Shown here piece after piece: positions 5,700-63,130 of a stretch of DNA of 64,000 bases (positions are counted from its first letter, which is position 1; each line of letters opens with the position of its first letter). The stretch is from NCBI RefSeq assembly GCF_004010195.1, contig NC_057749.1, positions 14,725,429 through 14,789,428 on the forward strand, in the 5' to 3' direction. The translations under genes were made by a program, and so were the position numbers. Under the pieces are notes generated by a model. That model was not told the DNA's origin, ran no database searches, and saw only the letters and a program-made list of their open reading frames with translations. Origin of the DNA: Chiloscyllium plagiosum. Lineage: Eukaryota.

Positions 5700-5990
5700 G
5701 TCTGCAAAAACAAAAACAGAAACTGCTGGAAAAGTTCCACAGCCTCTGTGGAGAAAAATCAGAGTTAACGTTTCAGGTCAAATGACCCTTCCTCAGAACT
5801 GATGGTAGCAAGGAAAGTGTTGATGTTTTGTGCAGAAAATAGGGCGGGTGGAGGCTGTAAGGAGTAAACAATAGGTTGGATTGGAGCCCAAAGAGAGAGA
5901 AGGACAGTTGTACAGACAAAGCAGTGGATAACGATCAGGCTAGGAGAGTGAACAGCTATTAATGAGGACTGTTAGCGGCTAACAATGGTC
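5700..5990 (-). mobile_element. Penelope-like element terminal fragment (family B) carrying a hammerhead motif
   Basis: aaaaacagaaactgctggaaaag...agagttaacgtttcaggtcaaatgacccttcctcagaact; same terminal family as the fold-backs at ~38.5, 41.9, 44.9 and 56 kb. Confidence 0.6.
5763..5800 (-). ncRNA. Minimal type I hammerhead ribozyme motif
   Basis: Minus strand: AGTT-CTGAGGA-A-GGGTC-ATTT-GACCT-GAAA-CG-TT-AACT. Core CUGANGA/GAAA, stem II, stem I AGTT/AACT, palindromic stem III ACGT. Confidence 0.65.
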
Positions 5991-11345: not shown

Positions 11346-11930
11346 GGTGCCAGTGCCTGGCAGAGCTATGCCGCTGTAAGGGCCCACGGTACCGGCTGGC
11401 GGCGCTGAAGTTCCTCTGTGCCTCGCCCTGGGAGGGAGCCGGAGCCGGAGCCGGAGCTGGAGCTGGAGCCAGTCGGTGTGAGGAGCCGAGCGGGACCGGC
11501 CCGGTTAGAGCGATGCGCGGCGGCGGCAGCGATGGCCAAATGGTTCAAGGAGCACCTGGGTTTCAGGAGCAGCAAGGGGCCCCCGCAGCCCCCGAAACCC
11601 GACTACCGCCCGCGGCCGGGGGCAGAGCCCGACATCCTGGCCGCTTACAAGCTGCAGAGGGAGCGGGACTTCGAGGATCCGTACACCGGCGGCTCCAGCT
11701 GCCTGCAGCGGCTTCGCTCCGAGGCGGCCGGGCCAGGGGCAGCCCCTGTAGCCGCGGCTGGAGTCCCCGGCGCCGGCTCCTCTCCACATCACCACCCGGC
11801 CAAGAAAGCTGCTTCTCCCGAACTCAAGTACATCTCCCCGAAACACCGGCTCATCAAAGTGGAAAACCCCGAGAAAAACTGCAGCAAGTTGGCTACATCT
11901 CCCGAGGACAACAAGCAGGACAAGGTGAGA
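11340..11930 (+). promoter_or_regulatory. CpG island over the SHF 5' UTR and exon 1
   Basis: Very GC- and CpG-dense block (ccggagccggagccgg, gcgcggcggcggc) in an otherwise CpG-depleted window; coincides with the first coding exon. Confidence 0.8.
11532..11924 (+). CDS. SHF: Coding exon 1 of SH2 domain-containing adapter protein F (SHB/SHD/SHE/SHF family)
   Basis: ATG in gcgATGg context at 11532. 131 codons: MAKWFKEHLGFRSSKGPPQPPKPDYR...DILAAYKLQRERDFEDPY...YISPKHRLIKVE...KQDK, then donor AAG|GTGAGA (phase 0). AKW..EHLGF, PDY, DILAAY.LQRERDFEDPY and HRLI.VE are SHB-family N-terminal motifs; as recalled they are closest to SHF. Confidence 0.9.
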
Positions 11931-11974
11931 GAGGGAGACAGAAAGTCCCCTACTGTTTCCCAGATACTCCACAC

Positions 11975-12060
11975 TTTTGTTTCCAAATGAAATACTTTTG
12001 TTTCCAAATGAAATACTTTTGTTTCCAAATCAAACGTTGTTTCCGAGTGAAATACTTTGT
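11975..12060 (+). repeat. 21-bp tandem repeat (ttttgtttccaaatgaaatac), about 4 degenerate units
   Basis: Direct reading; explains the repeated FCFQMKY in the ORF track. Confidence 0.85.
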
Positions 12061-12318: not shown

Positions 12319-14233
12319 CGCAACTTTCTCTTGCTCTCCTCCCAGGTGTAAGCTTGTGTTTCCTCTCTCTGGAAAGGCGAGAGAGGCTGCTCCTGGGAGC
12401 TCAGAACTGGACCTGAAAGGATTTTTATTTGGGGGCGGGGGGGTTGGGAACGAAAGCACCACTGTTTTCGTTTGGGAGTGAGAGTTTATTAGTTTGCACT
12501 TGCCTCTGAGAATCTAGCAGGGCGTTTTGAAGAGATGTCTCTAACAGAGAAGCTGCTTTGCACTGTTTCCTTGCAGAGATGGGGAAATCAGATCAGGCAT
12601 GAGCTTATTGAATGGGCAAGTATACTCAAGGGAGCGAGTGGTCCACTCCTGGTATTTTGAGAGTTGGTAACTCATTACCCAGTTTTGTTTTCCTTGTGAG
12701 GGATAAAGGTTTTCAAGGAGAGGAGGCAGAACACTTGGCTTGGCTCTGACAAAGGGCTGGTACAATTGAGATGGGCCAAATGGGCACGTGTCAAGTAAAC
12801 TGTGTAATTACACCTCAATCGGGGCTAAGGGAGGAGAGAGCCTATTTAACTACAGAAAGCATCACAAATGACCTTGATCTTGCTGCATGACCAAACTGAA
12901 TGTGGAGGTGGCAGTGTTGGACTGGGGTGGACAAAGTCATAAGTCACACGATACTCAGTTATAGCTGAAGGGGCAGCACTCCGAAAGCTTGTGATTTCAA
13001 ATAAACCTGTTGGACTATAACCTGGTGTTTGTGTGACTTCTGACTTTGTCCATACTAAAGATCAGGGGTTGTTCACTGACTGTGCCCCACATAGGAAGCA
13101 GGGTGAATGGTATCTTTGGGGTTTGATGGAGGGGTCACTGGATAGGACATCAAGAATGCTGCCTCTTCTCTCCCCCACCCCCCCGCCAACTCCATTCCTT
13201 AACTTCTCGAGGTTAACCACAGTTGATAAGTTGCTGACTCTGACCGTGATGAATTCACAGTGGGATTGTTCTTCTCCCATACCCCCAGAACAAATTGAAA
13301 GCTCCCCTTGGTTTGTGTTGTGAAATATCTTGCTTGTGATTTTCAGCAGAGCGTGCTGGTTTGTGGTGAGACTCTTGTACCATGTCAGCTTGGAAAAACG
13401 CCCAGTCTTGTGTGAACAGATCAGTCCTTCCAAATTTGGCCTGACTCTAGGGAGAGAATGTTAAACTGTGTTTAAAAAAAACCCAGGGGTAAAGAGCTAC
13501 TGATATTTTCTTCCCCAATCCTGCAAATTGCAGGCTACAGCCACTGTCTCTCACTTACAAAAAGTGCTCTTGGTTTCAGTTTGTGTTCACTGCAGTTCTC
13601 TCTCTGCAAAGTATAGGTTTGGAAACCTGCAGATGACAATGATGTTGGTTGAGGTTATCTCTGTTCTTGTTTAAAGGTTGAGTACAGGGTCAGTTTTGTA
13701 AAGGAATCAGAAATGGCCAGCACATCGTGTGGGTGGTTGCTCCTCTGTTCTTCGAAAATTAACATGAAGTGATTTCATTGTGATCATTAACTCTCTAGTG
13801 TGGAATTAATCCACCATCAACTGTGAGAGACGTTGATGGAAAGCAATTACAAAAAAAAACTTTCAAGTGAGTATCTGGAGCAGATTCATTAAGCAGGTAG
13901 TGGGCTGAAGTCCCAGTGGATAGAAGTCTGTCCCTGTATAACACTGGGGTATAGTACTGGTGGGGACAGGTCTGTCACTGTATAACACTGGGGTACAGTA
14001 CTGGTGGGGACAGGTCTGTCAGTGTATAACACTGGGGTATAGTACTAGTGGTGGGGGACAGGTCTGTCAGTGTATAACACTGGGGTATAGTACTAGTGGT
14101 GGTGGACAGGTCTGTTACTGTATAACACGGGTACAGTACTGGTGGGGACAGGTATGTCAATATAACAATGTGGTACAGTACTGGTGGAGACAGGTCTGTT
14201 GTTGTATAATGCTGGGGTACAGTACTAGTGGGG

Positions 14234-14916
14234 CTGAAAATGTGTTGCTGGAAAAACGCAGCAGGTCAGGCAGCATCCAAGGAACAGGAGAATCGACGTT
14301 TCGGGCATAAGCCCTTCTTCAGGAATGAGGAAAGTGTGTCCAGCAGGCTAAGATAAAAGGTAGGGAGGAGGGACTTGGGGGAGGGGCTTTGGAAATGNNN
14401 NNNNNNNNNNNNNNNNNNNNNNNNNNNNNNNNNNNNNNNNNNNNNNNNNNNNNNNNNNNNNNNNNNNNNNNNNNNNNNNNNNNNNNNNNNNNNNNNNNNN
14501 NNNNNNNNNNNNNNNNNNNNNNNNNNNNNNNNNNNNNNNNNNNNNNNNNNNNNNNNNNNNNNNNNNNNNNNNNNNNNNNNNNNNNNNNNNNNNNNNNNNN
14601 NNNNNNNNNNNNNNNNNNNNNNNNNNNNNNNNNNNNNNNNNNNNNNNNNNNNNNNNNNNNNNNNNNNNNNNNNNNNNGAAGGATCCCTTGGGGCCTTGGA
14701 GGGAAGTAAGGGGGGAGGTGTGGGCGCAAGTTTTGCATTTCTTGTGGTTGCAGGGGAAGGTGCCGGGAGTGGATGTTGGGTTGGTGGGGGGTGTGGACCT
14801 GACGAGGGAGTCACGGAGGGAGTGGTCTTTTCGGAACGCTGCCTGACCTGCTGCGCTTTTCCAGCAACACATTTTCAGCTCTGATCTCCAGCATCTGCAG
14901 TCCTCACTTTCTCCTC
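14234..14916 (-). mobile_element. Truncated Penelope-like retroelement (family A) with inverted terminal segment; spans an assembly gap
   Basis: Minus-strand ORF remnant FRKDHSLRDSLVRS...PGTFPCNHKKCKTCAHTSPLTSLQGPKGSF, the Cys-rich linker preceding the GIY-YIG endonuclease in PLEs. Terminal segment 14234-14275 is inverted relative to ~14838-14880. Flanked by tacagtactagtgggg at 14218-14233 and 14917-14932. Confidence 0.8.
14290..14327 (-). ncRNA. Minimal type I hammerhead ribozyme motif in the PLE terminus
   Basis: Minus strand: cattc-CTGAAGA-A-GGGC-TTAT-GCCC-GAAA-CG-TC-gattc. Core intact, stem I imperfect. Confidence 0.65.
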
Positions 14917-15136
14917 TACAGTACTAGTGGGGACAGGTCCGTCACTGTATAACTCTGGGGTATAGTACTGGTAGGGACAGGTCTGTCACTGTCTAACACT
15001 GAGGTATAGTACTAGTGGTGGGGACAGGTATGTCACCGTATAACAATGTGGTACAGTACTGGTGGGGATAGGTCTGTTGTTGTATAATGCTGGGGTACAG
15101 TACTGGTGGGGACAGGCCTGTCACTGCATAATGCCT

Positions 15137-15174
15137 GATTCCTGAAGAAGGGCCTGTGCCCGAAACGTCGAATC
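15137..15174 (+). ncRNA. Minimal type I hammerhead ribozyme motif (best-formed copy)
   Basis: GATTC-CTGAAGA-A-GGGC-CTGT-GCCC-GAAA-CG-TC-GAATC: 5-bp stem I, 4-bp stem II, palindromic ACGT stem III, GUC triplet with predicted cleavage after 15169. Confidence 0.75.
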
Positions 15175-17317
15175 TCCTGTTCCCTGGATGCTGCCTGACC
15201 TGCTGTGCTGTTCCAGCAATAAAGTTTCAACTGGGGACAGGTCTGTCACTGTATAACACTGGGGTTTGGTACTGGTGGGGGACAGGTATGTCCTTGCATA
15301 ATGCTGGGGTATAGCACTGGTGGGGACAAGTCTGTTGCTGTTCAATGCTGAGGTACAGTACTAGTGGGGACAGGTCTGTTGCTGTTTAATGCTGGGGTAC
15401 AGTACTGGTGGGGACAGGTCTGTTGCTGTTTAACACTGGGATACAGCACTGGTGTGGACAGGTCTGTCACTGTACAATGGTTACATTTCAATGGAGGACA
15501 GGTCTGTCACTGTGTAACATTGAGTACAGTACTGGTGGGGGCAGGTCTGTCACTGTATAAAGGTTACTGTACAAGGAAGGACAGGTCTGTCACTGTATAA
15601 CACTGGCGTATGGTGCTAACTGGATCTCTCTTTGGTGATTAAAGGGATGAATCTACAAGTATAATCAGAGACTCTCTCATGAGAAATATAACAACAAAAA
15701 AGTCAGGTTGTGTGTGTTGGCCTGCAATGTTGTGTTAGTTTATTAGCTGTGGGTCTGTGTCCTAATTTTGTAGTGAGTTTTAACTGTTTAGGTTCACAGT
15801 TAACTAAAATAATCATCCAGCATCAATAATTGAGATGTTGTACCAACAATGTATTGACCCTTTGTAAGCTGATAACCCAAATAAATTCTGCAGTTATTTC
15901 CGAGACACTGAGACAGACACTGAATCAGATCGTGATGCTCCCTCCACTGAAACCTTCAATGTTTGAAACATTTACTAAAAATTCTGCTGAAAGCTGGTTT
16001 TGAATTTTACCACTTTCTGCAGCATTTACTGAACTCTTAGCATAAGAAGCTGAAACAAGAGGAGGCCATTCAGCCCCTCGTAGCTCATCTGCCATTCAAT
16101 AAGATCATGGCTGATCCAGCTCAACTCCACCATTCTGCCCTTCACACATTCCTCCATTTCCTTAGTGCTGAGTTAGATTTTAAATTAAATCATTTTTGGT
16201 GCTTTTAAGGATTTTTGTGTGTTTCTTTTTTAAGCCTCTGGGTTCAGAAGGCCATGAGCTTACAACACCACTGCAGAGATCATGCTCTCCTTTCTTAGTG
16301 TAGTAGTGAGGGAGATGCTGCACTGTTGGAGATGTCATCTTTTACAATGAGAGGATAGAGGGAGGTCCAGTCAACCTCAGGCAATGTTGTCGCAGTAAAG
16401 AGTCATTTATATGCGTTCATCAAAGGAAATCCCAGTTTAAAGGTCAAGGTTCATAATGCAGGGTGGTACCAAAATTGACAAAATGCTGATGTCCCCACAA
16501 TTATTAGCATCAGACTTGGGTTTTCGGACTGAAGGGGAAGTTTGGTTGTGATTGGGGGTTGAGGGGGTGGGGCAGAGTTTGCATTTTAAGATCCTGGTCT
16601 AAGAAATTTCAGCACTTTGAGATCGAAAAGATTACGGGATTGGGTATGTAGAATTGAGGAGGAACAAGGAAGGTATATTCAGAAGGGTGTTGACTTAGGT
16701 TCAGTGATAGAGAGAAAGGATTATTGCGACAGAACTATGCAACATCCCACATAGCTATACCGCTGTTGGAATGAACACTGTTGACTCATACCTGAGCTTA
16801 ATTGACTGAAATTTCAAAACTGTTTATGCTCTGGCAGCTTAAAATATCATTCTGATTTCCTGACTGAGTTTCAGGAGCGGCTGTTTGGACGAGGAGAGAG
16901 TGGAAGAAAGTACAGGAGGGCTTTTTTAAAAAAAGGCGTAATATTCTATTTTGAACACCTTGCTGCTGTTTGTTGACTAACTTTGATTGCATTGGTTCAT
17001 TCTGCTGTTTGTGAGCCACAATCATGTTGGTAACACTGACACAATGTCAGTGCTGAGGATTTGTATTGTCATGTGGGCCTTGATCCCTCATTGGTGGGAA
17101 CTGGTTCTGGCTTGGGCTCCCCATCCTCAGGCACCAGTGCTGCTGTATCTGCCAGGTTTGAGGTGAGGTATCAGCATGGCTGTTCTACCCGAGTGGGGTG
17201 GAATACAGCAAGTCAACTCTTGTCCCCCCCCCCCCCAGAGATTCATGGGCGTACATTGTAGAGCATTGCAGTCTTTGTCCCAACATCTTTCTTCCTATCA
17301 GACAATAAGCAAAATGG

Positions 17318-17680
17318 GGAGGCAATGGCCTAGTGGTATTATCACTGGACTGTTAATCCAAAGACTAAAGTGACATTCTGGGGACCAGAGTTCGAATCCC
17401 ACCATGGCAGGCAGTGAAAATTGAATTCAATTGGTAAAATCTGGAATAAAATTCCAGCCTGATGATAACTATGTAGTAAATGTCAATTGTCGTCAAAATG
17501 TCATCTGGTTCACTCATGTCATTTAGGGAAGGAAATCTGCCATCCTTACCTGGTCTGGCCTACATGTGACCCAGACCCACAGCAATGGGGTTGACTCTTA
17601 ACTGTCCTCTGGGCAATTAGGGATGGACAATAAATGCTGGCCCAGCCAGTGAAGCCCATACCCTGTGAATGAATTTAAAT
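17318..17680 (+). mobile_element. tRNA-derived SINE, near full length
   Basis: Box A-like tggcctagtgg and box B-like gttcgaatccc, family body, LINE-like tail ending gaatgaattt. Confidence 0.8.
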
Positions 17681-22460: not shown

Positions 22461-23800
22461 CTCAGTAATGTGTTTCAGCCCTAATATAGAAAGAATGTGT
22501 GGCAGTATGTATGCTTATGGTGACCACTCTGTGAAACACTATTTGAAGTCCCTGGAATGAGGGTAAAATGCAATCACTTAAACCTTTGATCCCAGCATCA
22601 AAGTGTGCAGGAAATTGGGACCATTGGCACTTTGTAATGGATCCTGCTCTGCTCCCATCCCCCGCCCCCTCGAGCCGTAATGTGAAGGGAGAGTCCATTT
22701 CTGATGAAGGTGTTGGGAATTGCTCTTCACATTTCCTGAGCTAACACGTTGACCATCCGTTGGAAATGTAAAGAAAGTGTTTGGCATTGGCTCCTCAGGA
22801 TCAAGTGGGTTATTGAGCAGGACAATGTGGAGTTGCAGCTGGGGTGGATTGTGGGAGGTGGTCACTCTTGCTACAGTGGCACTGGGTCGGTTGCTGAGTT
22901 CTATGTATTAGATGGGGAATGACTTGTATGTCTTCACCAGGGAGATGTCAAGCCAGCTTGATTAACACTAGAGTATGTGAGTGTGAAATCTATTTCCTTG
23001 CTGGGATCCTGGTGACTAATACAATTACAAGTGGCTTTATTGGTTTGTCACAGCTTCCTGTCTCCAGTCCCATGGGTAGGGAACTAACTGTTCACCACAT
23101 CCAGCTTGTGACACTGTTGGTTCCAATCCTGCTGTGAGCATCTCTGCTGGAGGAGTCAGCCTGGTGTGCAGTGGGAGTAATGGATGACCCCCGGTGAATG
23201 TAGTGGACAGATGAGTATATCTCACTGAATCAGGAATGGAGCAAAGAGCCTTCGCACATTGAGCTTGTGTAGTCACTGCCGACTGCACTTGCCTGAGTGT
23301 TGGGTGTGAGCTACCTGTGGTGTGGAAAGCAGGCAGGGCCTTTGTTGAACAAAGAGTTTTGAAACTGAATTCCTGAAAATCCTCAGGTTCGCTGTCACCC
23401 CAGATGACTGGAGCCAGCAGTCTGGGTGGAGGGGGTGGGGTACTTTGCCTGTCTGCCCCCTCCAATCTTTGGAGCAGAGCAGGATCCATTACAAAGTGCC
23501 AATGGTCCCAATTTACTACATTCTTTGATGCTGGGATCAAATGTTTAAGTGATTACACTTTACCCTCATTCCAGGGATTTCAAACAGTGTTTCATAGAGT
23601 GGTCACCATGAACACTCCGATTGCTGACCACACTGTTAGTATATTAGTTAAAAATCACACAACACCAGGTTATAGTCCAACAGGTTTATTTGGAAGCACT
23701 AGGTTTCGGAGCGCTGCTCTTTCATCAGGTGGTTGAATATTAGGGCTGAGATACATAGGGTGAGAGTTGAGGGAGCTTTACTTTGTATCTAACCCTGGGG
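22430..23800. repeat. Long inverted repeat (arms ~22430-22655 and 23471-~23800) around an ~815-bp spacer
   Basis: ggagcagagcaggatccattacaaagtgccaatggtcccaattt... at 23471 is the reverse complement of the sequence ending at 22655; the ORF track shows SRAGSITKCQWSQF on opposite strands. Confidence 0.92.
23648..23736 (-). mobile_element. Penelope-like terminal fragment (family C) with hammerhead core, flanked by an ATATTAG duplication
   Basis: Minus strand: CCAC-CTGATGA-A-AGAGC-AGC-GCTCC-GAAA-CC-TA-GTG. ATATTAG at 23641-23647 and 23737-23743. Confidence 0.75.
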
Positions 23801-26339
23801 TGTTCTCCTTGCTGTCATGGCCATTACTGTTTCCATCAAACCAACTTTGTGGAAGAAAGTTATATCCAGTTGTTACTAGCTTGCTGTTTGTGGGATCTTG
23901 CTGTGCAGAGTTTGGCTGTTACAGTTCCTGACATTAGAACCACGACAGTAATTCATAGCTCTTTGGGGGTGTACCAGAGTTGTGAAAGGCACTATGTAAA
24001 TTGAAGTCCTTCTTTTATGCTGGATTCTAGTTGAAGTCTGACTGTATGACCCAGTGTGCTGAATTACACAATTTGAACTATAATTTGCATTACTGAAAAA
24101 TGTGTTGCTGGAAAAGCGCAGCAGGTCAGGCAGCAGCCAAGAAGGTCAAGAAGGCGGTGCTGAGTCTGAGGGTTGGGACTGAGAAAAAGTGGGAGGGAAG
24201 GGAAATGAGGAAGCTGGAGAAATCTGCAAATTTGGATAAGTTCATGAATAAGAAATGTTCAAGTGCAGGCAGGTGGGACTAGTTTAGTTTAGGTATAGGG
24301 CCTGTTTCTGTGCTGTATGTCTATGACATGAGCTAATGCAGAATTGTATCCAGGTATGATACTGAGCCAGAGAATGCTTTTGTTTGTTCCTGTAAGCGAT
24401 CTAATCAATGTTCTTTCTTTAATAGTGCTCCAGTTCAGATTCTTGGGCTCTGAAAGGTCACTGGACTCGAAACATTTTCTCTCTCCACAGATGCTGCCAG
24501 ACCTGCTGAGTTTCTCCAGCACTTTCAGTTTTTGTTCTATTTCAGATGCTCTGCATTGCTGTGAAGCTTAGGGCCAGTTCGGAGTCAGGCTCCCTTTTGT
24601 TGTACCCCATCAGCTTCCTCTGAAGGAGACCCCTGGCAATTGGCCCTCCTCTTCAACACTGCCCTGAGATAGCTAGTGTTCTGTCCCACACTGGGGGCAA
24701 TCTACCCACCAGCACGCACACTGAGGTAGGAGATAGTGGTGTAATGGTAACATCACTGGACCTGTAATCCAGACGTCCACCCTAATACTCTGGGGATGTG
24801 GGTGCAAATCTCACCATGATAATTTATCGGTCCTTGTGTGGTGTGGTGGTAATGATGCGACCCCTGGACTGGGAGGTCTGGATTCAAATCCCAGCTGCTC
24901 CAGAGCTGTGTAATAACATCTCTGAAAAGGGTGATTGGAAGAAATAGGTTACATTTAAAAAAGAAAGAATTGGTGAAATTTTTGTTCTGTCAATGAAATA
25001 AAAAATCAGTACCAGTGATGGGAACCCCAATCTGGTTCCCACACGTCCTTACCTTGGCTGGCCTACACTTAACACCAGACCCACAGCAATGTGGGTGACT
25101 CTGAAATGGCTGAGTAGGGCACTCAGTTCAAGGGGCAATTAGAGAGGGGCAGAAAATGCTGGCATGGCCAGTGATGCCCACATCCTGTGAAATCCCAGGC
25201 TAGATTTGAGAGAATCTATTAAGTAAGAGAATCTAAAGTGGGAAGGATCAGAGTCTACCATGTCTTTGTTTCCACTGAGACGGGGATCCTAAATCCTCTC
25301 ATCTCTCCCTGCTGTCTTCCAGCATCCTTGTTTCCTCCTCCTTCACCCTCACCCCATCCACTTTGCAAAGGTTTAGGGTCTGAGTGAAATTTTGGGAAGG
25401 GATGGGATAGTGGTTGCCTTGTCCTAATAAGTGTGTTTAATCCAGGTATAGTCCTCCTTCCTATTGGGATCCTCTGGAATAATATGTTTTGTTAATGTGT
25501 CAGGCTTTAATCCACGAGGAAATTGCCTGACCTCTGTGTGTAACCTGCTGGAGACTATTGCCATTTATTAGAGCTTCCGCAGTCAGTGCTCCTGTTCTTT
25601 CAGCTCCTGCAGCAAGTACTCAGGAGACTGGGAAGCTCAGTCACCGGCACAGAGAGTGAGCAATGCTGCAGCTACACCAGCCTGGTTTAACATTCCTCCC
25701 CCCAATCTCCACTATCCCCAATCCTTTTCAGTGGTCTCTCCACCTCTCAGCTCCTCATTGGGATCTAGTTCAGCAGGCACTTAAACTGCAGTGGCTGCGG
25801 GCATCAGTGCGCCCTGAGAGTGAGACGGGCTGTTCAACTCTGCAAGCATCACGATTGAGGCAATTGGAAGGTAGGAGAGAGAACTACAGACTGAGACACA
25901 GGGGCATGGGGGGAACATTAATTATTTACACGTTGGAAAGCGGTAAAGAGAGAAACCCAGAGATTGGAGTCACAGTGATACACGTTGGCCTACAGATAGA
26001 GAAAGCAGAATAACAGAGAGAATGAAAAGCACTGATAAGAAAGAACCACAAATGGAGAAATAAAAACAGAGATAGAGACAGCCACATCGATGTAGACAGG
26101 GAGAGGAAAATCACAGCACAAATTAGTTTTGATTATTCATGACCATAGGACAATGTGTTTTCAAAATGTAAAAAAAATCAATCTTTTTACTCCAGAAATT
26201 GAAAGGTATTGCTCCATCAGAGTTAGGTGTTCCCATTTCTCTGTGATATTATTCTCGTTCTGTGTGTTTCATGTGAATGGGCAGATCTACGTTTGTTTCT
26301 GTGTTTGCACACCACACCCCCCTCCCTGTATGTGTCTCT

Positions 26340-30925: not shown

Positions 30926-31066
<141 letters not shown>

Positions 31067-31647: not shown

Positions 31648-34600
31648 ATAGAGTCAGAGTCATACCGCAAGGAAACAGACCCTTCGGTCCAACCAGTTCA
31701 TGCTGAACAGTATCCCAAACTAGTCCCACCCGCCTGTTTCTGGCCCATAACCCTCCAAACATTTCCTATTTGTGAACTTATCCAAATGTCTTTTAAACAT
31801 CGTAATTATAGAACATAGAACATTACAGCACAGTACAGGCCCTTCGGCCCTTGATGTTGCGCCGCCCTGTCATACTAATCTGAAGCCCATCCCACCTACA
31901 CTATTCCATTTGCCTGTCCAATGACGACTTAAATGCACTTAAACTTGGCGAATCTACTACCGATGCAGGCAAACCCTTACTACTCTCTGAGTAAAGAAAC
32001 TCCCTCTGACATCTGTCTTATACCTATCTCCCCTCACTTTAAAGTTGTGTCCCCTCGTGTTTGCCGTCCCCATACTTGGAAAAAGGCTCTCCCAGTCCAC
32101 CCTATCTAACCCTCTGATTACCTTGTATGTCTCTATTAAGTCACCTCTCAACCTTCTTCTCTCTAACGAGAACAGCCTTAAGGCCCTCAACCTGTCCTCA
32201 TAAGATATTCCTTCCATATCAGGCAACATCCTAGTAAATCTCCTCTGTACGCTTTCCAAAGCTTCCACATCCTTCTTATAATGCGGTGACCAGAACTGTA
32301 CACAATACTCCAAGTGTGGCTGTACCAGAGCTTTGTACAGCTGCAGCATAACCTCATGGTTCCGGAACTCAATCCCTCTATTAATAAAGGCCAAAACTGT
32401 ATGCCTTCTTAACAACCCTGTCAATCTGGGTGGCAACTTTCAGGGATCTGACACCGAGATCTCTCTGCTCATCTGCACTCCCAAGAATACTACCATTAGC
32501 TCAGTAATTTGCATTCCGATTACTCCGGCCAAAGTGTATCACCTCACACGTGTCCACATTAAACTCCATTTGCCACCTCTCAGCCCAGCTCTGCATCCTA
32601 TCTATGTCTCTCTGTAACCTACTACATCCTTCGTCACTATCCACAACTGCACCGACCTTAGTGTCGTCCGCAAATTTACTAACCCACCCTTCTAAGCCCT
32701 CATCCAGGTCATTTATAAAAATGATGAACAGCAGCGGACCCAACACTGACCCTTGCGGTACACCACTAGTAACTGGACACCAAGATGAACATGTTCCATC
32801 AACTACAACCCTCTGTTTTCTTTCAGCAAGCCAATTACTGATCCAAACTGCTATGTCTCCCACAATCCCATTCCTCTGCATTTTGTATACTGTGGGGAAC
32901 CTTATTGAATGCCTTGCTGAAATCCATATACCCCATATCAACTGGTTTACTCTCATCTACCTGTTTGGTCACTTTGTCAAAAAACTCAATAAGATTCGTT
33001 AGGCATGACCTACCCTTCACAAAATCATGCTGACTGTCCCTGATCAGATTATTCTTTTCTAGATGGTTATAAATCCTATCTCTTATAACCTTTTCCAACA
33101 CTTTACCAACAACTGAAGTGAGACTCACTGGTCTGTAATTACCAGGGTTGTCTCTACTACCCTTTTTGAACAAGGGAACCACATTTGTTATCCTCCAGTC
33201 CTCAGGCACTATTCCTGTAGACAACGATGATTTGAAGATCAATGCTAAAGGCTCGGCAATCTCTTTCCTTGCTTCCCAGAGGATCCTAGGATAGATCCCA
33301 TCTGGCCCAGGGGACTTGTCTATTTTCACACTCTGCAGTAATTCTAATACCTCTTCATTGTGAACCTCAATCTCTTCTAGTCTAGATGCAAATATTTCTG
33401 TATCTTCCTCGCCAACATTTTCATTTTCTATAGTGAACACTGTCGAAAAATATTTATTTAGTACTTCCCCTATCTCCTCTGACTCCACACACAACTACCC
33501 ACTATTATCTTTGATTGGCCCTAATTTAACTCTCGTCATTCTTTTATTCCTGACATACCTATGGAAAGCCTTAGGGTTAACCCTGATCCTATCCGCCAAC
33601 AACTTCTCATGTCCCCTCCTGGCTCTTCTGAGCTCTCTTTTTAGGTCTTTCCTGACTTCCTTGTAACCCTTAAGCGCCCTGACTGAATTTTCACATTTTG
33701 TCCTAACATAAGCCTACTTCTTCTTGACCAGGGATTCCACTTCCTTAGTAAACCACGGCTCATGCATGCTATATCCTCCTCCCTGCCTGACAGGTACATA
33801 CTTATCTAGGACACACAGGAGCTTTTCCTTGAATAAGCTCCACATTTTTAATGTGCTCATCCCCTGCAGTTTCCTTCCCCATTCTACGCTTCCTAAATCT
33901 TTCGTAATTGCATCGTAATTTCCCTTCCCCCAGCTGTAACTCTTGCTCGGTGGAGAACACCTGTCCCTTTCCATCACTAAAGTAAACCTGACAGAATTGT
34001 GATCGCTGTCTCCAAAGTGCTCACCTACTTCCGTATCTAAAACCTGGTCAGGCTCGTTACCCAGTACTAAATCGAAAGTGGCTTCGTCCCTTGAAGGCAC
34101 GTCTGCATACTGTGTCAGCAAGCCCTCCTGCACACACTGGACAAAAACTGACCCATCTATAGTACTCGTACTGTCGTGATCCCAGTCAATATTTGGATGG
34201 TTGAAGTCCCCCATGACAACTACCCTGCCTCTCACACTCCTATCGAGAATCATCTTCCTCAGGGTTTTCATTCCACACACGAATCACCCCCTGTGTAAAA
34301 TATTTGCCAATCCTGTTTTTTTAAAAATTACTCTCCTTTCATCTTAAAAATGTGTCTCAAAATCACCCATTGTAGGGAAAAGACACCCACTGTTAACACT
34401 ATCTATACTCGTCATGATTTTATAAACTTCTATAAGGTCACCTCTCAACCTTTTATGCTCCAATGGTAAAAGGTCCCAGCTTATTCAGATTTCTTTATTG
34501 CAAAAACCTTCCATACAAGGCAACATTCTGGTAAATCTCATCTGAACCCTCTCCAGCTTAATAATATCCTTCCTGCAACTGGGTGACCAGAATTGGACAC

Positions 34601-35974: not shown

Positions 35975-36855
35975 GTTAGTAAATTTGTGGATGAAACTAA
36001 GGTCGTTGTGGATAATGACAAAGGATGTTGTAGGTTACAGAGAGACATAGATAAGCTGCAGAGCTGGCTGAGGGATGGCAAATGGACTTTAATGCGGAAA
36101 AGTGTGAGGTGATTCACTTTGGAAGGAGCAACAGGCATAAAGAGTACTGGCCTAATGGTAAGATTCTTGGTAGTGTAGATGAGCAGAGAGATCTTGGTGT
36201 CCAGGTACATAGATCCCTGAAAGTTGCCACCCAGGTTGATAGGGTTGTTAAGAAGGCATACAATGTGTTAGCTTTTATTTGTTGAAGGATTGAGTTTTGG
36301 AACCATGAGGTCATGCTGCAGCTGTACAAAACTCTGGTGCGGCCGCATTTGGAGTATTGCGTACAGTTCTGGTCACTGCATTATAGGAAGGGTGTGGAAG
36401 CTTTGGAAAGGGATCAGAGGAGATTTTCCAGGATGTTGCCTGGTATGGAGAGAAGGTCTTATGAGGAAAGGCTGAGGGACTTGAGGCTCAGAGAGAAGAA
36501 GGTTGAGAGGTGACTTAATTGAGACATATAAGATAATCAGAGAGTTAGGTAGGTTAGTCAGTGGGAGCCTTTTTTATTGGATGGTGATGGCTAGCACGAG
36601 GGGACATAGCTTTAAATTGAGGGATGATAGAAATAAGACAGATGTCAGAGGTAGTTTCTTTACTCAGAGTAGTAGGGGTGTGGAACGCACTGCCTGCAAC
36701 AGTAGTAGACTCGCCAACTTTAAGGGCATTTAAATGGTCATTGGATAGTCATATGGACGAGAATGGAATAGTGTAGGTTAGATGGGCTTCAGATTGATTA
36801 CACAGTTAGGTGCAACATTGAGTGCTGAAGGGCCTGTATTGTGCTGTAATGTTCA
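35975..36855 (+). mobile_element. CR1-clade LINE 3' ~0.9 kb, same subfamily as 31809-34255, opposite orientation
   Basis: CEVIHFGRSNR, MLQLYKTLVRPHLEYCVQFWS, RGDLIETYKIIR, KTDVRGSFFTQ. Confidence 0.92.
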
Positions 36856-39629
36856 AAGAGGAATCCTCTCCCTGAGCCTGATTTTAAAGTGGGTCTTACC
36901 AGAATGGAGGCTGGAGCTGGGTTGCTTGGTTGACTCAGGGGATCTCCCTTGTCCCAAGCTGTGACCCTGGGGTTGATCTTTGCAAACTTGAGCAAAGAGC
37001 AGCCAGGAATGGGTCTGCACTGAGGAGGGGATGGAAACCAGTTTCCACATGGGATCCAAAATGCTTTAGGCATCGAGGGTGCAGGAGGGGAGAGCTGAAA
37101 TTTACAGGGCCCCATCGCCACCTCAACCTGCCCAGGAGTGGGCAACAGAGACCCTCCCCTCTGTACTCAGACAGGAGGAGTGAGCAGTCGGGGAAGAGGA
37201 GGGTCGCAAGTGAGAGCAAGTCACTCCTAGTGGTTCTCCGAGGTTCCTCCTGTTTCAGTCCTTCAGCCTGTTATGAAGAGTGTACTCAATTAGCCGGACG
37301 GCTGCTTTTTGATGCAGAGTGACATCAACAAGCATGGGTTCAATTCCAATACAGGGCTGAGGTCACCATGAAGGATTGACTCTCCTTCTCAACTTCTCCC
37401 CTCATCTGGGGCATGGTGAGCCCCAGGTTTAAACCACCAGCAGTCANNNNNNNNNNNNNNNNNNNNNNNNNNNNNNNNNNNNNNNNNNNNNNNNNNNNNN
37501 NNNNNNNNNNNNNNNNNNNNNNNNNNNNNNNNNNNNNNNNNNNNNNNNNNNNNNNNNNNNNNNNNNNNNNNNNNNNNNNNNNNNNNNNNNNNNNNNNNNN
37601 NNNNNNNNNNNNNNNNNTCTCTTCCTCCCTCCCTCGCCTCTCGCGTGCTCTCTCTCCCCCTCTCGCTTGCGCTCTCTCTCTCTCTCTCTCTCTCTCCCTC
37701 CCTCCCTCTTGCGCCCCCTCTCTTGCTCTCTCTCCATCCCCCTCGCCCGCGCTCTCTGTCTTTCTCTCTCTCGTGCTCTCTATAGTCTGGTAGGACTATG
37801 CTGATGTTATATAGGGTACACAGAATGAACTTTTCCCCGTGGGTCAATGACCAGAGGGTATAGATTTATGGTAAGGGGCAGGAGGTTTACAGAAGATGTG
37901 GGGAAAACATTTTTCACTTGGCTTGGGGGGAATCTGGAGCTCCCTGGCTGTGAAAGTGGGAGAGACAGAAACCCTCCTAACATTTAAGAAGGTGTTTTGA
38001 TGTACAGTTGTAATACCAAGACAGCACAAGGCTATGAGCCAAGTGCTGGGAAGTGAGATTAGGTGGTAATTTTTGACTGGCGCAGGCTTCATGGTCCGCA
38101 GGGCTTTTTCTCTGCTGTAGATCTCTCTGACTCCATGTACAAACATCCTTGTTTGGATTCAACTGAATAGACTCTCTTGCTTAATGACTATTCAGAAAGG
38201 CTAACATCAGTCTACTCTGACCACTCTCCTCATGTTGGTTCACTGACAATGTCTGCTTTTGAACAGATTTTGAAAGCCTTTTGTCTGTTGGATACTAAAG
38301 ATGTGTTTTCTTCTTTATTCCTTTGAGTTGTTTGTTATTCTTTAACATCACGTTACCTCTCCCACACACACAAGCCAACACCACGCCCCCGCATCACTGA
38401 CAAGTTCTCTCCTTTTATATCTGTGCTTCTATTATAGCAGCTGTTTGTCTGTGAGTGCTTTTAGTGGCTGGTTGTGACAGTCTCTCTGTGTGGTGCCTGG
38501 TGGAAAGCGATAGAGAGAAGTAAAAACTGGAAGAACTGCAGATGCTGTAAATCAGAAACAAAAACAGAAATCACTGGAAAAGCTCAACAGGTCTGACAGC
38601 ATCTGTGGAGAGAAATCAAAGTTTAATGTTTCCTTAGAACTGACTCAACCTAAAGATGCTACCAGACCTGCTGAGCTTTTCCAGCAATTTGTTTTGGATA
38701 GAGAGGAGTAGCTCTCTCCCATCCCCCTCCCCAGGTCAGTCAGTCGCCCAGAGACATTTGCAGCATAGAAAGGAGGCCATTTGGCCCATCCTGAGTGTGC
38801 CAGCTAATAACGATCTGACCACACTAATTTCATCTTCCATGGGTTTTGGCCCATAGTCCTGGAAACGGTGGCAATTCAAGGTGGATCTGTCAATGCTGCT
38901 TAAATATTACAGTAGTGAGTGCCAGCAGGCTGATGTCATCGTGAGGGGAGCACAGAGTTTCACCAGTTTGATTTAAAGTGAAGCCAGAGCTTTGAAATCC
39001 CATCTCATTGCGTATGCAGAAGCAAAATGTTAATGCATTCACTTGTGATTATATTAGCTTACAGCCACGTCTCTGAGCACAAGAAAGCTGGTGATTAACA
39101 CAAATATGATCTCGGTGAAGTAATGGGACCAATTGTATGTAAAGGGCAGCTACAGTCAAGTCACTAACTGTTGACGTGCGTAATTATAACTCCCATAAAA
39201 ATGATTCTGCCTATTGTCACAATCTCCGTAGAGACTGATAACTTTGTTCAAAGGAGAATTTTTGAACTTCCGGTTGCCAGCTGAAATAACGACATAGCAA
39301 GCTTTCACAGTCTGAAACGTTTACTGTAATAATAAGTGCGCTGAGAAAAAAGTACTCTAAACTAGAATCATTTCAGTTTTGAAGGCAACTTGCCCTTGCG
39401 AAGACAGAGAGGGTATTTCCCTTGTTTCCAATATTTACACTCACTCCCTTTACAGAGCAATGTCGCCCACAGCTGCTGGTGGCTTGCTATATTCCCTGTT
39501 TTGCTGACTAAGAACTTTTTGAATGATCATGTCCAGCCTCTCTCCTCAGTTTTCAGTGTTTCTTCAATCCACCATTTGCCAAGAAGAGGCCATTCAGCCT
39601 CTCCAGCCTCCTTTCCCCATTCAACTCCA

Positions 39630-62587: not shown

Positions 62588-63130
62588 CTGTGTGTGTATG
62601 TGTTGGTGCGAGCAAGTGTGTGTGTGTTTGTGTGTGTTGGTGTGAGCAAGTGTGTGTGTGTGTTGGTGTGAGCATTGTGTGTGTGTTGGTGTGTGTGTGT
62701 GTGTGTGTGGGTGTGAGCGCAAGTGTGTGTGTGNNNNNNNNNNNNNNNNNNNNNNNNNNNNNNNNNNNNNNNNNNNNNNNNNNNNNNNNNNNNNNNNNNN
62801 NNNNNNNNNNNNNNNNNNNNNNNNNNNNNNNNNNNNNNNNNNNNNNNNNNNNNNNNNNNNNNNNNNNNNNNNNNNNNNNNNNNNNNNNNNNNNNNNNNNN
62901 NNNNNNNNNNNNNNNNNNNNNNNNNNNNNNNNNNNNNNNNNNNNNNNNNNTGTCTGTGTGTGAGTGTGTGAGCAGTGTGTGTGTGTGAGCAGTGTCTGTG
63001 TGTGTGTGAGAGCAATTTCTGTGTGTGAGAGCAATTCGATGTGTGTGTGTGTGTGAGAGCAATTTCTGTGTGTGTATGTGTGTGTGTTTGTGCGAGCAAG
63101 TGTGTGTGAGAGCAATTTCTGTGTGTGTGA
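62588..63130. repeat. TG-rich compound microsatellite spanning an assembly gap
   Basis: (TG)n with gagca/gagcaatttc spacers; Ns at 62734-62950. Confidence 0.95.

What the first reader, a model, noticed from the sequence alone, without database searches (positions are those of the whole stretch)
15137..15174. Intact minimal hammerhead ribozyme motif on the sense strand of SHF intron 1
Seen: GATTC-CTGAAGA-A-GGGC(CTGT)GCCC-GAAA-CG-TC/GAATC has the full hammerhead core, a 5-bp stem I, a 4-bp stem II, one extra A after A9, and a stem III reduced to the palindrome ACGT, which cannot close within one molecule. Known: Penelope-like elements carry minimal type I hammerheads with palindromic stem III that cleave as dimers. 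Inference: this copy is transcribed in the SHF pre-mRNA and could cut the intron after 15169 if it finds a partner motif in cis or trans.
Basis: partly seen in the sequence, partly recalled or inferred. Interest (0 to 1): 0.7.

Follow-up and report, generated by a model that had tools for sequence, protein, structure and literature searches.

The report
Retroelement hammerhead copy in shark intron
The motif is a real, intact copy of the small "dimer-type" self-cutting RNA carried by Penelope-like jumping genes, but it is one of tens of thousands of near-identical copies in this shark genome and is most likely an inert leftover of an insertion, not a device of the SHF gene.

Summary
The 38-nt motif at 15137-15174 (+) is exactly as described. 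It lies on the sense strand of intron 1 of an SHF-like gene.

It is not a private feature of that gene. Its core pattern occurs 65,074 times in the 3.56-Gb genome, and the 88 nt from 15142 occur 9,668 times letter for letter.

The family is the terminal-repeat hammerhead of a young, very abundant Penelope-like element (PLE). The element carries a reverse transcriptase, a GIY-YIG-like endonuclease, a 3'UTR, then the hammerhead and a conserved "tail".

The motif shows four published hallmarks of PLE minimal hammerheads: the core, an extra base after A9, G10.1-C11.1 and palindromic 15.2-16.2 (PMC4209133).

The finding's copy is a 96-bp solo "hammerhead + tail" piece inside a 44-bp minisatellite, beside an older head-to-head PLE insertion.

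I found no same-strand partner in the 64-kb window. An inverted copy 803 nt upstream would pair with 35 of its 38 bases. RNA reads of the repeat family show no ends at the cut site.

Host-intron cleavage is unlikely. This is an ordinary member of a known kind.

The parts
15134..15229 (+). Solo 96-bp 'hammerhead + short tail' unit of PLE subfamily B (loop CTGT, GAATC, tail ending ...AATAAAGTTTCA). This is the repeat copy that contains the finding.
   Evidence: It is one arm of the 96-nt inverted repeat. Homology to other copies starts at ATTC (15138) and ends near 15229-15231. The stretch 15142-15229 is identical to 9,668 genomic copies.
15137..15174 (+). Minimal type I hammerhead motif: stem I 15137-15141/15170-15174; core CUGAAGA 15142-15148; bulged A 15149; stem II 15150-15153/15158-15161; loop 15154-15157; G12A13A14 15162-15164; palindromic helix III ACGU 15165-15168; C17 15169 (cut site 15169/15170).
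   Evidence: Sequence. The MFE fold equals stems I and II. Descriptor hit.
15186..15205 (+). Conserved tail box GGATGCTGCCTGACCTGCTG, part of the PLE 'tail' downstream of the hammerhead.
   Evidence: 165,276 exact genomic copies with control 0. 10 matches with up to 3 mismatches in the window against 0.01 expected.
15218..15223 (+). AATAAA hexamer within the subfamily-B tail, in sense orientation in the intron.
   Evidence: Sequence. Shared by B copies. Its function was not tested.
14235..14330 (-). Second hammerhead + tail unit (subfamily A, loop TTAT, stem I with a U.U mismatch) on the opposite strand. Its core pattern is at 14295-14322.
14331..14837 (-). 5'-truncated PLE body continuous with the minus-strand hammerhead: the 3'UTR, and an endonuclease-region ORF fragment at 14678-14839. 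It is interrupted by a run of N at 14398-14677 (assembly gap or withheld).
   Evidence: The 54-aa fragment P0001 has 51,299 first-look candidates in the genome, and all 150 scored are 93-100% identical.
14838..14916 (+). 5'-truncated tail-only fragment (A type, long tail ending ...CACTTTCTCC) abutting the minus-strand PLE head to head. It has no hammerhead.
   Evidence: 42-nt inverted repeat at 98%. Sequence. Listed as L010 + 1656.
13926..15610 (.). 44-bp minisatellite (13926-14233, 14917-15133, 15230-15610) that was the target of the insertions. Its orientation relative to the two hammerhead units differs, so it is not part of the element.
   Evidence: TRF. Sequences.
5767..5796 (-). Another intact min-hammerhead of a different, older PLE family (CTGAGGA, bulged A, stem II GGGUC/GACCU, ACGU palindrome) with a degenerate tail.
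11538..11925 (+). Exon 1 of the SHF-like gene (MAKWFKEHLGF...). The 3' limit is approximate.
   Evidence: P0002 is 95% identical to named SHF-like proteins of a carpet shark. tblastn of P0004.
30926..31057 (+). Exon 2 of the SHF-like gene (residues about 127-170 of P0004, 97.7% identity). It places 15137-15174 inside intron 1.

Best explanation
The motif is one sequence-intact copy of the minimal, dimer-type type I hammerhead that sits in the terminal repeat (pLTR) of a young and extremely abundant Penelope-like retroelement (PLE) family of this shark genome.

In the element the order is: ORF (reverse transcriptase, then GIY-YIG-type endonuclease), 3'UTR, hammerhead, conserved tail. In longer copies the 5'UTR and the ORF start of the next unit follow.

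The copy in SHF-like intron 1 is a 96-bp solo 'hammerhead + tail' piece of subfamily B. It inserted into a 44-bp minisatellite 217 bp from an older head-to-head PLE insertion.

Shown here: the anatomy, the copy numbers, the PLE linkage and the intron position.

Inferred from the literature: within the element's own life cycle the hammerhead cleaves multimeric PLE or retrozyme-like transcripts after C17. It does so by pairing its ACGU with that of a second copy, probably helped by the element's protein. The tail is where reverse transcription starts.

Inferred for this copy: it is a by-product of retrotransposition with no host function. Alone it cannot form helix III, it has no same-strand partner nearby, and in the pre-mRNA it is more likely locked in a long hairpin with the inverted copy upstream than folded as a ribozyme.
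For: Motif and coordinates.

Repeat nature:
- 65,074 exact core matches, reversed control 0.
- 165,276 exact tail boxes.
- 9,668 copies identical to 15142-15229 over 88 nt.

PLE linkage:
- The window's minus copy continues upstream into an EN-region ORF.
- L038 has a 674-aa frame with RVT_1 (E 8e-9, 35.9 bits against a cutoff of 29.6), followed by the EN end, about 230 nt of 3'UTR, and the hammerhead plus tail.
- L016 shows ...IIYCIRCTRCGLLYIGET....
- GIY-YIG hits at E 6e-4 and 0.0099 in 2 of 4 ORFs, both below the cutoff.
- L058, L084 and L074 show 3'UTR, hammerhead, tail, 5'UTR and ATG as one continuous homologous block.

Published hallmarks of PLE min-hammerheads, all present here: a base between 9 and 10.1, G10.1-C11.1 and palindromic 15.2-16.2. 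Pairs on opposite strands 100-700 bp apart are also described there (PMC4209133, Results and Discussion read).

The head-to-head arrangement is typical. Of the 12 neighbouring pairs no more than 2 kb apart among the first 100 listed hits, 11 are (-,+), 1 is (+,-) and none is on the same strand.

Selection pattern in 62 tail-anchored copies (share of copies differing from the majority base, per column): core 0.020, stem II 0.021, loop II 0.125, tail outside the box 0.099.

Against activity of this copy:
- It is the only + strand min-hammerhead in the window.
- The inverted-arm duplex is -163.5 kcal/mol and pairs 35 of 38 hammerhead bases.
- The double-hammerhead scores -18.9 against -20.0 for two monomers.
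- In a 131-nt context the hammerhead fold is not the MFE.
- 291 RNA reads cover only the repeat (289 only partly on the stretch), with no place where molecules begin or end and no drop in depth across 15169/15170.
- The PAc hammerhead needs protein, and no RNA-seq ends were seen at its cut site (PMC11167929, passages).
Against: - No cleavage assay was possible, so 'inactive here' is an inference.
- The copy keeps every core base and all three CpGs, whereas only 31 of 62 tail-anchored copies are fully intact. It is therefore among the copies most able to act.
- Subfamily B has the better stem I (4 of 4 pairs against 3 of 4 in A).
- With tens of thousands of copies, trans partners could exist in nuclear RNA, and repeat-family RNA is present in both orientations.
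- The variability comparison is biased by my filter (at most 8 mismatches in the 52 nt that include the hammerhead) and by mixing subfamilies.
- GIY-YIG Pfam hits are below the curated cutoff.
- The RNA library was poly(A) single-cell RNA-seq. That design is poor at catching 5'-OH and 2',3'-cyclic-phosphate ends. Only about 2 in 100 of the run was read.
- The N run at 14398-14677 hides part of the neighbouring element.
Confidence: 0.88

Rival explanations
1. One reading: the copy is an active ribozyme in the SHF pre-mRNA that cuts intron 1 after 15169 by dimerising with a partner motif in cis or in trans, and so affects SHF expression.
For: - It is in sense orientation in intron 1.
- The core is fully intact, with a perfect 4-5 bp stem I and 4-bp stem II.
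- Family transcripts exist in both orientations.
- There are thousands of possible trans partners.
- Dimer-type cleavage is the accepted mode for such motifs (PMC4209133; PMC6765202 passages).
Against: - There is no same-strand partner in the window.
- Only 4 bp (ACGU) plus a 4-bp swapped stem I would hold a trans dimer, and the model energy is no better than two monomers.
- A far stronger competing hairpin forms with the inverted copy 803 nt upstream.
- Min-hammerheads cleave poorly in vitro even as dimers (PMC4209133). Eight of nine Xenopus retrozyme dimers gave no product (bioRxiv 10.64898/2026.07.22.740005, passage).
- No read ends were seen at the cut site.
- 9,668 identical copies argue against locus-specific selection.
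Confidence: 0.04
2. The insertion matters to the host through features other than catalysis. Either the two inverted units form a long intronic double-stranded hairpin, or the sense AAUAAA of the B tail acts as a cryptic polyadenylation site, with side effects on SHF transcripts.
For: A 96-nt inverted repeat, 89% complementary, modelled at -163.5 kcal/mol. AATAAA at 15218-15223 on the sense strand.
Against: Nothing was tested. No reads with poly(A) tails after 15223 were reported among the loose ends (table 7). Such features are common in introns full of repeats. Intronic insertions of these elements are frequent: about 43% of Xenopus retrozymes overlap introns (bioRxiv 10.64898/2026.07.22.740005).
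Confidence: 0.07
3. A chance match to the hammerhead consensus with no relation to any ribozyme family.
For: The loose CTGANGA...GAAA pattern is not enriched in the window. Rfam gives no hammerhead hit.
Against: 0.00 matches are expected for the specific pattern and 0.05 for the structural descriptor. There are 65,074 genomic copies against 0 for the control. The motif is linked to PLE ORFs. It also carries hallmarks that a core-only match does not require: the bulged base, G10.1-C11.1 and the palindrome.
Confidence: 0.01

Closest known systems
Minimal hammerheads (min-HHR) in the pLTRs of Penelope-like elements (Cervera & De la Pena 2014, PMC4209133)
   Same: The conserved core; an unpaired base between A9 and 10.1; G10.1-C11.1; palindromic 15.2-16.2 with no helix III hairpin; a short helix I (4-5 bp); location in the terminal repeat of an RT + GIY-YIG element; mass dispersal as single motifs; pairs on opposite strands a few hundred bp apart.
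   Different: - The host is a shark.
- Helix II is 4 bp; the S. mansoni families have 7-8 bp.
- The copy number of this one family (65,074 exact cores) exceeds the about 4,000 and 9,000 given there for coelacanth and Xenopus.
- The copy in question is a 96-bp solo fragment, not part of a full element.
PAc (Poseidon of Anolis carolinensis) hammerhead and 'tail' (Mob DNA 2024, PMC11167929)
   Same: The hammerhead lies at the pLTR/ORF junction, upstream of a tail region where insertions end. Both DNA strands are cut and extended in vitro, which fits head-to-head insertions. No RNA-seq ends appear at the cut site.
   Different: In PAc the ORF starts in stem II. Here the element's ATG lies about 135 nt after the cut site (L087; L058). 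Protein-assisted cleavage and the RT start site were not tested here.
Animal non-LTR retrozymes: tandem type I hammerhead repeats and their solo 'monomers' (NAR 2020, PMC7229834, search listing only; bioRxiv 10.64898/2026.07.22.740005, abstract and passages)
   Same: Subfamily B also occurs as same-strand tandem units 224 and 291 bp apart. Each unit has a hammerhead and is built from pLTR and 5' pieces of the PLE (L087). Solo derivatives are dispersed, many of them in introns.
   Different: The finding's copy is not tandem and is shorter than the tandem unit. Circular RNA was not examined.
Conserved intronic type I hammerheads of amniotes (RECK, CTCL introns; PMC6155905 figure legend)
   Same: A type I hammerhead on the sense strand of an intron of a protein-coding gene.
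   Different: As I recall, not from a call, those are single-copy, conserved motifs with a closed helix III and loop-loop contacts that are active as monomers. This one has no helix III hairpin and no Rfam match, and it is one of tens of thousands of identical repeat copies.
Dimer-only hammerheads of newt satellite 2 and avocado sunblotch viroid (Forster et al. 1988, as cited in PMC4209133 and PMC6765202)
   Same: An unstable helix III, so the active form is a double hammerhead made from two copies.
   Different: Those retain a 1-2 bp helix III with a small loop and occur in tandem multimeric RNAs. Here helix III is reduced to ACGU and the copy is solitary.

Membership tests
Hammerhead ribozyme, type I topology | Conserved core C3 U4 G5 A6 N7 G8 A9 ... 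G12 A13 A14 ... A15.1-U16.1, H17 | tested here: met
   CTGAAGA, GAA, A...T and C17 at 15142-15169. Descriptor hit.
Hammerhead ribozyme, type I topology | Three helices around the core, with helix I open-ended | tested here: not met
   Stems I (5 bp here, 4 bp in the family) and II (4 bp) form in the MFE fold. Helix III cannot form in one molecule, because ACGT leaves a 2-nt 'loop'. It exists only as an intermolecular 4-bp helix.
Hammerhead ribozyme, type I topology | Match to a curated Rfam hammerhead covariance model | tested here: not met
   No hammerhead family at gathering score in the window, nor at E<=10 in 13000-17500 or 15100-15215. That Rfam holds several hammerhead models is recalled, not taken from a call.
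Hammerhead ribozyme, type I topology | Site-specific self-cleavage after H17 giving 2',3'-cyclic phosphate and 5'-OH ends | not testable with these tools
   Only indirect evidence: no pile-up of read ends at 15169/15170 in 291 family reads from a poly(A) single-cell library.
PLE minimal hammerhead (min-HHR, PMC4209133) | [quoted passage not shown] | tested here: met
   A at 15149. The column is nearly invariant in 62 copies, with variability 0.016.
PLE minimal hammerhead (min-HHR, PMC4209133) | G10.1-C11.1 closing pair of helix II | tested here: met
   G15150 pairs with C15161.
PLE minimal hammerhead (min-HHR, PMC4209133) | Palindromic 15.2-16.2 (and loop 3 if present), allowing an extended helix III in a dimer | tested here: met
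   A-CG-T at 15165-15168. ACGT is kept in 42 of 62 tail-anchored copies, and the losses are mostly CpG decay to ACAT or ATGT.
PLE minimal hammerhead (min-HHR, PMC4209133) | Residence in the terminal repeat of an element encoding an RT and a GIY-YIG endonuclease | tested here: met
   Met for the family: RVT_1 above the cutoff in L038, followed by the hammerhead plus tail; GIY-YIG-like motif and sub-threshold Pfam hits; the window's minus copy. The finding's own copy is a solo fragment with no ORF attached.
Non-LTR retrozyme | Tandem same-strand repeat units, each with a type I hammerhead | tested here: not met
   Not met for this copy: it is the only + strand min-hammerhead in the window. Relatives of the same subfamily do form such arrays, with spacings of 224 and 291 bp in L087.
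Non-LTR retrozyme | Circular RNA of unit length | not tested
   No back-splice-type joints were reported for the raw-read run (table 5), but the stretch laid was not a tandem array.
Exapted, conserved intronic hammerhead | Single-copy orthologous conservation across species | tested here: not met
   9,668 identical copies in the same genome. Orthologous loci in other species could not be examined, because no relatives are held (header).

The most novel reading that the evidence does not exclude
In cells where the PLE protein is expressed, sense-strand intronic copies like this one are cleaved. They would form trans double-hammerheads with the abundant repeat-family RNA, assisted by the element's protein as shown for PAc. 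Bursts of PLE activity would then nick thousands of host pre-mRNAs at defined sites, including SHF intron 1 at 15169/15170.
Probability: 0.03. Interest if true: 0.7.

Novelty: new member of a known kind. Interest (0 to 1): 0.15.

Why it matters
For the SHF gene it probably does not matter. The motif is a passenger of a retroelement insertion, and such intronic copies are common.

The useful result is negative. An 'intact hammerhead in an intron' should not be read as a host ribozyme when the same 88 nt occur about 9,700 times in the genome.

At genome level, the family shows how far PLE hammerheads can spread in a vertebrate. There are at least 65,000 exact cores and 165,000 tail boxes in 3.56 Gb. 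Autonomous, internally deleted tandem (retrozyme-like) and 96-bp solo forms sit side by side.

That makes this genome a good place to test whether these minimal hammerheads ever cleave in vivo.

Tried and rejected
- **Rfam.** Searches at gathering score and at E<=10 gave no hammerhead. I take this as the models' blindness to motifs without helix III, not as evidence against the motif.
- **Loose pattern.** CTGANGA...GAAA was not informative: 11 matches against 7.3 expected.
- **Long PLE ORFs.** Frames reported as 600-3,800 aa mostly ran through runs of N. Only L038 gave a 674-aa frame without N.
- **Pfam.** Nothing was found for 2 of 4 EN-region ORFs, and GIY-YIG was below the cutoff in the other 2.
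- **The 44-bp minisatellite as part of the element.** Rejected. It has opposite orientation relative to the two units, and other copies have unrelated flanks.
- **The loop-II ATG of subfamily A as the ORF start, as in PAc.** Rejected. That frame stops after 26 codons (my reading), and the element's ATG lies about 135 nt downstream. Subfamily B has no ATG there.
- **Thermodynamic support for the double-hammerhead.** Not obtained: -18.9 against -20.0 in trans, and -8.7 against -15.4 in cis.
- **RNA runs.** No RNA holder was listed for the stretch. In the lay, one raw-read run gave 0 reads and the other covered only the repeat unit, so expression of this locus is untested.
- **Tail-anchored sample.** A sample of 30 loci could not be cut out. 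I used the copies already held instead.
- **Lunse, Weinberg & Breaker 2016 (PMC5785218).** Not held. I know it only from the reference list and one sentence of PMC6765202.
- **Print search.** A search for a shark PLE hammerhead (terms 'Penelope-like', 'shark', 'ribozyme') returned one paper, in which 'shark' refers to the shape of the motif. A search with 'Penelope', 'bamboo shark', 'transposable' returned 2 papers. In the one I opened, the whale shark genome paper, Penelope is listed only as a repeat class. The preprint's supplements, which might name its one chondrichthyan species and families, are closed.
- **Earlier scan notes.** None for this genome.

Full report
**1. Observation**

One search shows, at 15137-15174 on the + strand, GATTC-CTGAAGA-A-GGGC(CTGT)GCCC-GAA-ACGT-C-GAATC. 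C17 is 15169, so a cut would fall between 15169 and 15170.

The isolated 38-mer folds into stem I plus stem II as its minimum-free-energy structure (-10.0 kcal/mol). A15.1 and U16.1 are separated by only CG, so helix III cannot close within one molecule.

A loose hammerhead-core pattern is not enriched in the window: 11 matches against 7.3 expected. Two more specific tests are far above chance:
- The specific pattern with up to three mismatches gives 2 matches against 0.00 expected.
- A structural descriptor of my own gives 3 motifs, against a mean of 0.05 in 100 dinucleotide shuffles. It requires the core, an optional bulge, a 4-8 bp helix II, GAAA, a palindromic helix III insert and H17.

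Rfam gives no hammerhead hit at any threshold tried. That fits a motif lacking a helix III hairpin.

**2. Gene context**

An open frame at 11409-11990 starts MAKWFKEHLGF.... Its translation P0002 is 95% identical to proteins named SH2 domain-containing adapter protein F-like from a carpet shark. It is 88% and 79% identical to those of two other sharks.

A local tblastn of P0004 puts residues 3-160 at 11538-12002 and residues 127-170 at 30926-31057.

**3. It is a repeat**

| Pattern searched in the 3.56-Gb genome | Forward | Reverse | Reversed control |
|---|---|---|---|
| Core pattern CTGAAGAAGGGC-N4-GCCCGAAACGTC | 32,568 | 32,506 | 0 |
| 20-nt box 44 nt downstream | 82,857 | 82,419 | 0 |
| 88 nt from 15142 to 15229, letter for letter | 4,857 | 4,811 | 0 |

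Comparison of ten copies shows a unit of about 96 nt:
- ATTC;
- the hammerhead;
- a tail containing GGATGCTGCCTGACCTGCTG and ending ...TTCAGC or ...TTTCAAC. Some copies add about 35 nt ending ...CACTTTCTCC.

Two subfamilies are visible.
- **Subfamily A:** loop TTAT or TCAT; GATTC after the cut site, giving a U.U mismatch in stem I.
- **Subfamily B:** loop CTGT; GAATC, giving a perfect 4-bp stem I; AATAAA in the tail.

The finding's copy is B. G15137, the fifth pair of its stem I, is flank sequence and not part of the unit.

**4. The family belongs to a Penelope-like element**

In the window a second unit lies on the minus strand, with its core at 14295-14322. It continues upstream into a 3'UTR and an ORF fragment (...GTFPCNHKKCKTCAHTSPLTSLQGPKGSF). 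That fragment is interrupted by a run of N at 14398-14677.

The 54-aa fragment has 51,299 first-look candidates in the genome. All 150 that were scored are 93-100% identical.

Copies without N show the rest of the domain (...IIYCIRCTRCGLLYIGETGRLLAEHFREH...). GIY-YIG Pfam hits there are below the cutoff, at E 6e-4 and 0.0099, in 2 of 4 ORFs.

Walking upstream led to L038. Its 674-aa frame carries RVT_1 above the curated cutoff (E 8e-9). It is followed by the endonuclease end, about 230 nt of 3'UTR, and the hammerhead plus long tail.

L058, L084 and L074 share one continuous homologous block: 3'UTR-like sequence, hammerhead, tail, 5'UTR, ATG. This is the pLTR arrangement described for PLEs.

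Every long copy I looked at is 5'-truncated and abuts an inverted copy.

**5. Match to the published kind**

Cervera and De la Pena (PMC4209133; I read the abstract, Results, Discussion and part of the Methods) define PLE min-hammerheads by:
- the core;
- a conserved base between 9 and 10.1;
- G10.1-C11.1;
- palindromic 15.2-16.2;
- a short helix I.

They describe the motifs as mostly dispersed single copies, sometimes paired on opposite strands 100-700 bp apart. In vitro cleavage was low even for dimers.

The present motif shows all of these sequence features. The 'extra A after A9' is a hallmark, not a defect.

For the Anolis element PAc, passages of PMC11167929 report:
- cleavage only in the presence of the element's protein;
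- cutting and extension of both DNA strands;
- insertions ending in a 'tail';
- no RNA-seq reads ending at the hammerhead cut site.

**6. Local anatomy**

A 44-bp minisatellite runs from 13926 to 15610. It holds two insertions.

- **Insertion (i), a head-to-head PLE insertion.** It has a minus-strand copy of at least 600 bp (14235-14837) and a plus-strand tail-only piece (14838-14916).
- **Insertion (ii), the 96-bp subfamily-B unit at 15134-15229.** It lies 217 bp further on. It belongs to a different subfamily, so I take it to be an independent insertion.

The (-,+) arrangement is the rule in this genome. Among the first 100 listed core hits, 12 neighbouring pairs lie within 2 kb of each other. 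Eleven are (-,+), one is (+,-), and none is on the same strand.

**7. Conservation within the family**

I collected 101 tail-box contexts from all DNA held. I dropped the 8 copies that had been fetched by the hammerhead pattern itself. I also dropped copies with N or with more than 8 mismatches in the first 52 nt. That left 62 copies.

| Region | Share of copies differing from the majority base, per column (non-CpG columns unless noted) |
|---|---|
| Core | 0.020 |
| Stem II | 0.021 |
| Loop II | 0.125 |
| Tail outside the ascertained box | 0.099 |
| The two CpG columns of ACGT | 0.145 |

Thirty-one of 62 copies keep the core, the palindrome and a 4-bp stem II. ACGT survives in 42 of 62.

The pattern is what selection on the source elements' hammerhead would give. 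My mismatch filter and the mixture of subfamilies bias it in that direction, so I treat it as suggestive only.

On contig C1, 34 of 45 + strand hammerhead hits have an exact tail box at +44. Only 34 of 100 + strand tail boxes have an exact hammerhead at -44. Many copies are therefore truncated inside or after the hammerhead, or have decayed.

**8. Can this copy act?**

- **No cis partner.** It is the only intact min-hammerhead on the + strand of the window. The others are on the minus strand, at 14295-14322 and at 5767-5796. The latter belongs to a different family.
- **Competing hairpin.** In a + strand transcript the minus-strand unit is read as antisense 803 nt upstream. The two 96-nt arms co-fold at -163.5 kcal/mol, against -42.4 for the arms folded separately. 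The duplex pairs 35 of the 38 hammerhead bases.
- **Local context.** In a 131-nt context the hammerhead fold is replaced by pairing with minisatellite sequence.
- **Dimer energetics.** The domain-swapped double hammerhead evaluates at -18.9 kcal/mol, against -20.0 for two monomers. For a natural tandem pair it evaluates at -8.7, against -15.4.
- **RNA reads.** In one raw-read poly(A) single-cell run with the same species label as the best holder, 291 reads were laid and 289 lay only partly on the stretch.
  - They cover only 15126-15237, in both orientations, so they come from other copies.
  - Depth does not drop across 15169/15170: 51.9/110.6 before and 57.5/128.7 after.
  - No place was flagged where molecules begin or end.

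That library type is a weak detector of ribozyme ends, and about 2 in 100 of the run was read. Expression of this locus itself is untested.

**9. Relatives of the same subfamily**

The listing shows same-strand runs of identical B units. One of them, L087, has hammerheads 224 and 291 bp apart. Each is followed by the tail, the 5'UTR and the first codons of the PLE ORF, then about 18 nt of 3'UTR end and the next hammerhead.

These are internally deleted, tandem, hammerhead-bearing units. That is what the literature calls non-LTR retrozymes and derives from PLE pLTRs (bioRxiv 10.64898/2026.07.22.740005, abstract and passages). The finding's copy is a shorter solo derivative.

**10. Verdict**

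The step from 'intact motif in a sense intron' to 'could cut the SHF intron' is not supported and is unlikely.

The motif is a new member of a known kind. I found no shark PLE hammerhead in print with the searches. For the gene, it is ordinary.

Noticed in passing
genome-wide (G000); window 15134-15229 and 14235-14330: The copy number of this one PLE hammerhead family is very high for a vertebrate: 65,074 exact cores, 165,276 exact tail boxes, and 9,668 copies identical over 88 nt. PMC4209133 calls about 4,000 (coelacanth) and about 9,000 (Xenopus) min-hammerheads 'remarkable'.
   Followed up: partly
L002, L006, L008, L022, window 15134-15141: Solo units do not start at random. In 5 of 6 solo copies seen, homology to the family begins at (A)TTC, 3-4 nt before C3, which is exactly the 5' edge of helix I. 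One idea is that reverse transcription starts at the tail of a transcript whose 5' end lies at the hammerhead, giving about 96-bp mini-insertions. The sample is small and the idea was not tested.
   Followed up: partly
L003, L004, L005, L007, L047; contig C1 listing: Head-to-head (-,+) pairs of hammerhead units with cores only 32-55 bp apart are frequent: 6 of the 12 close pairs. Their junctions fall at or inside the hammerhead's 5' part. This would fit priming on both DNA strands, as reported for PAc in vitro (PMC11167929).
   Followed up: partly
L087 1-801 (G000:C1:26522100-26522900): A tandem array of subfamily-B units 224 and 291 bp apart. The units are made of hammerhead, tail, 5'UTR, the first codons of the PLE ORF and a stub of 3'UTR: a retrozyme-like, internally deleted PLE.
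   Followed up: partly
window 5767-5796 (-), with tail to about 5700: An intact min-hammerhead of another PLE family (CTGAGGA, bulged A, helix II GGGUC/GACCU with a G.U closing pair, ACGU palindrome). It lies about 5.7 kb upstream of SHF exon 1 and is followed by a degenerate tail.
   Followed up: partly
window 23703-23728 (-); 24119-24138 (-), 24489-24508 (+), 38654, 42006, 45039, 56112, 63747 (+): Further decayed hammerhead-like cores and tail boxes (GATGCTGCC[A/T]GACCTGCTG...TTCCAGCA) of older families. The hammerhead-plus-tail module is shared by several PLE lineages in this genome.
   Followed up: no
window 31957-34283 (-) and 36055-36733 (+): Long open frames that, by my recollection of such motifs and not by any search, look like a non-LTR (LINE-type) endonuclease/reverse transcriptase. 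They are unrelated to the finding.
   Followed up: no
window 14398-14677, 37447-37617, 62734-62950; many loci: Runs of N of varied length sit inside or next to PLE copies and simple repeats. In several loci fetched through the PLE N-terminal region they are about 1,400-1,500 long and cover the ORF interior. I cannot tell assembly gaps from withheld stretches.
   Followed up: no
runs X1 and X2: Contigs of runs labelled with two different organisms (A and B) hold the hammerhead-tail unit at 95% identity or more, so the family is probably shared by related species.
   Followed up: no
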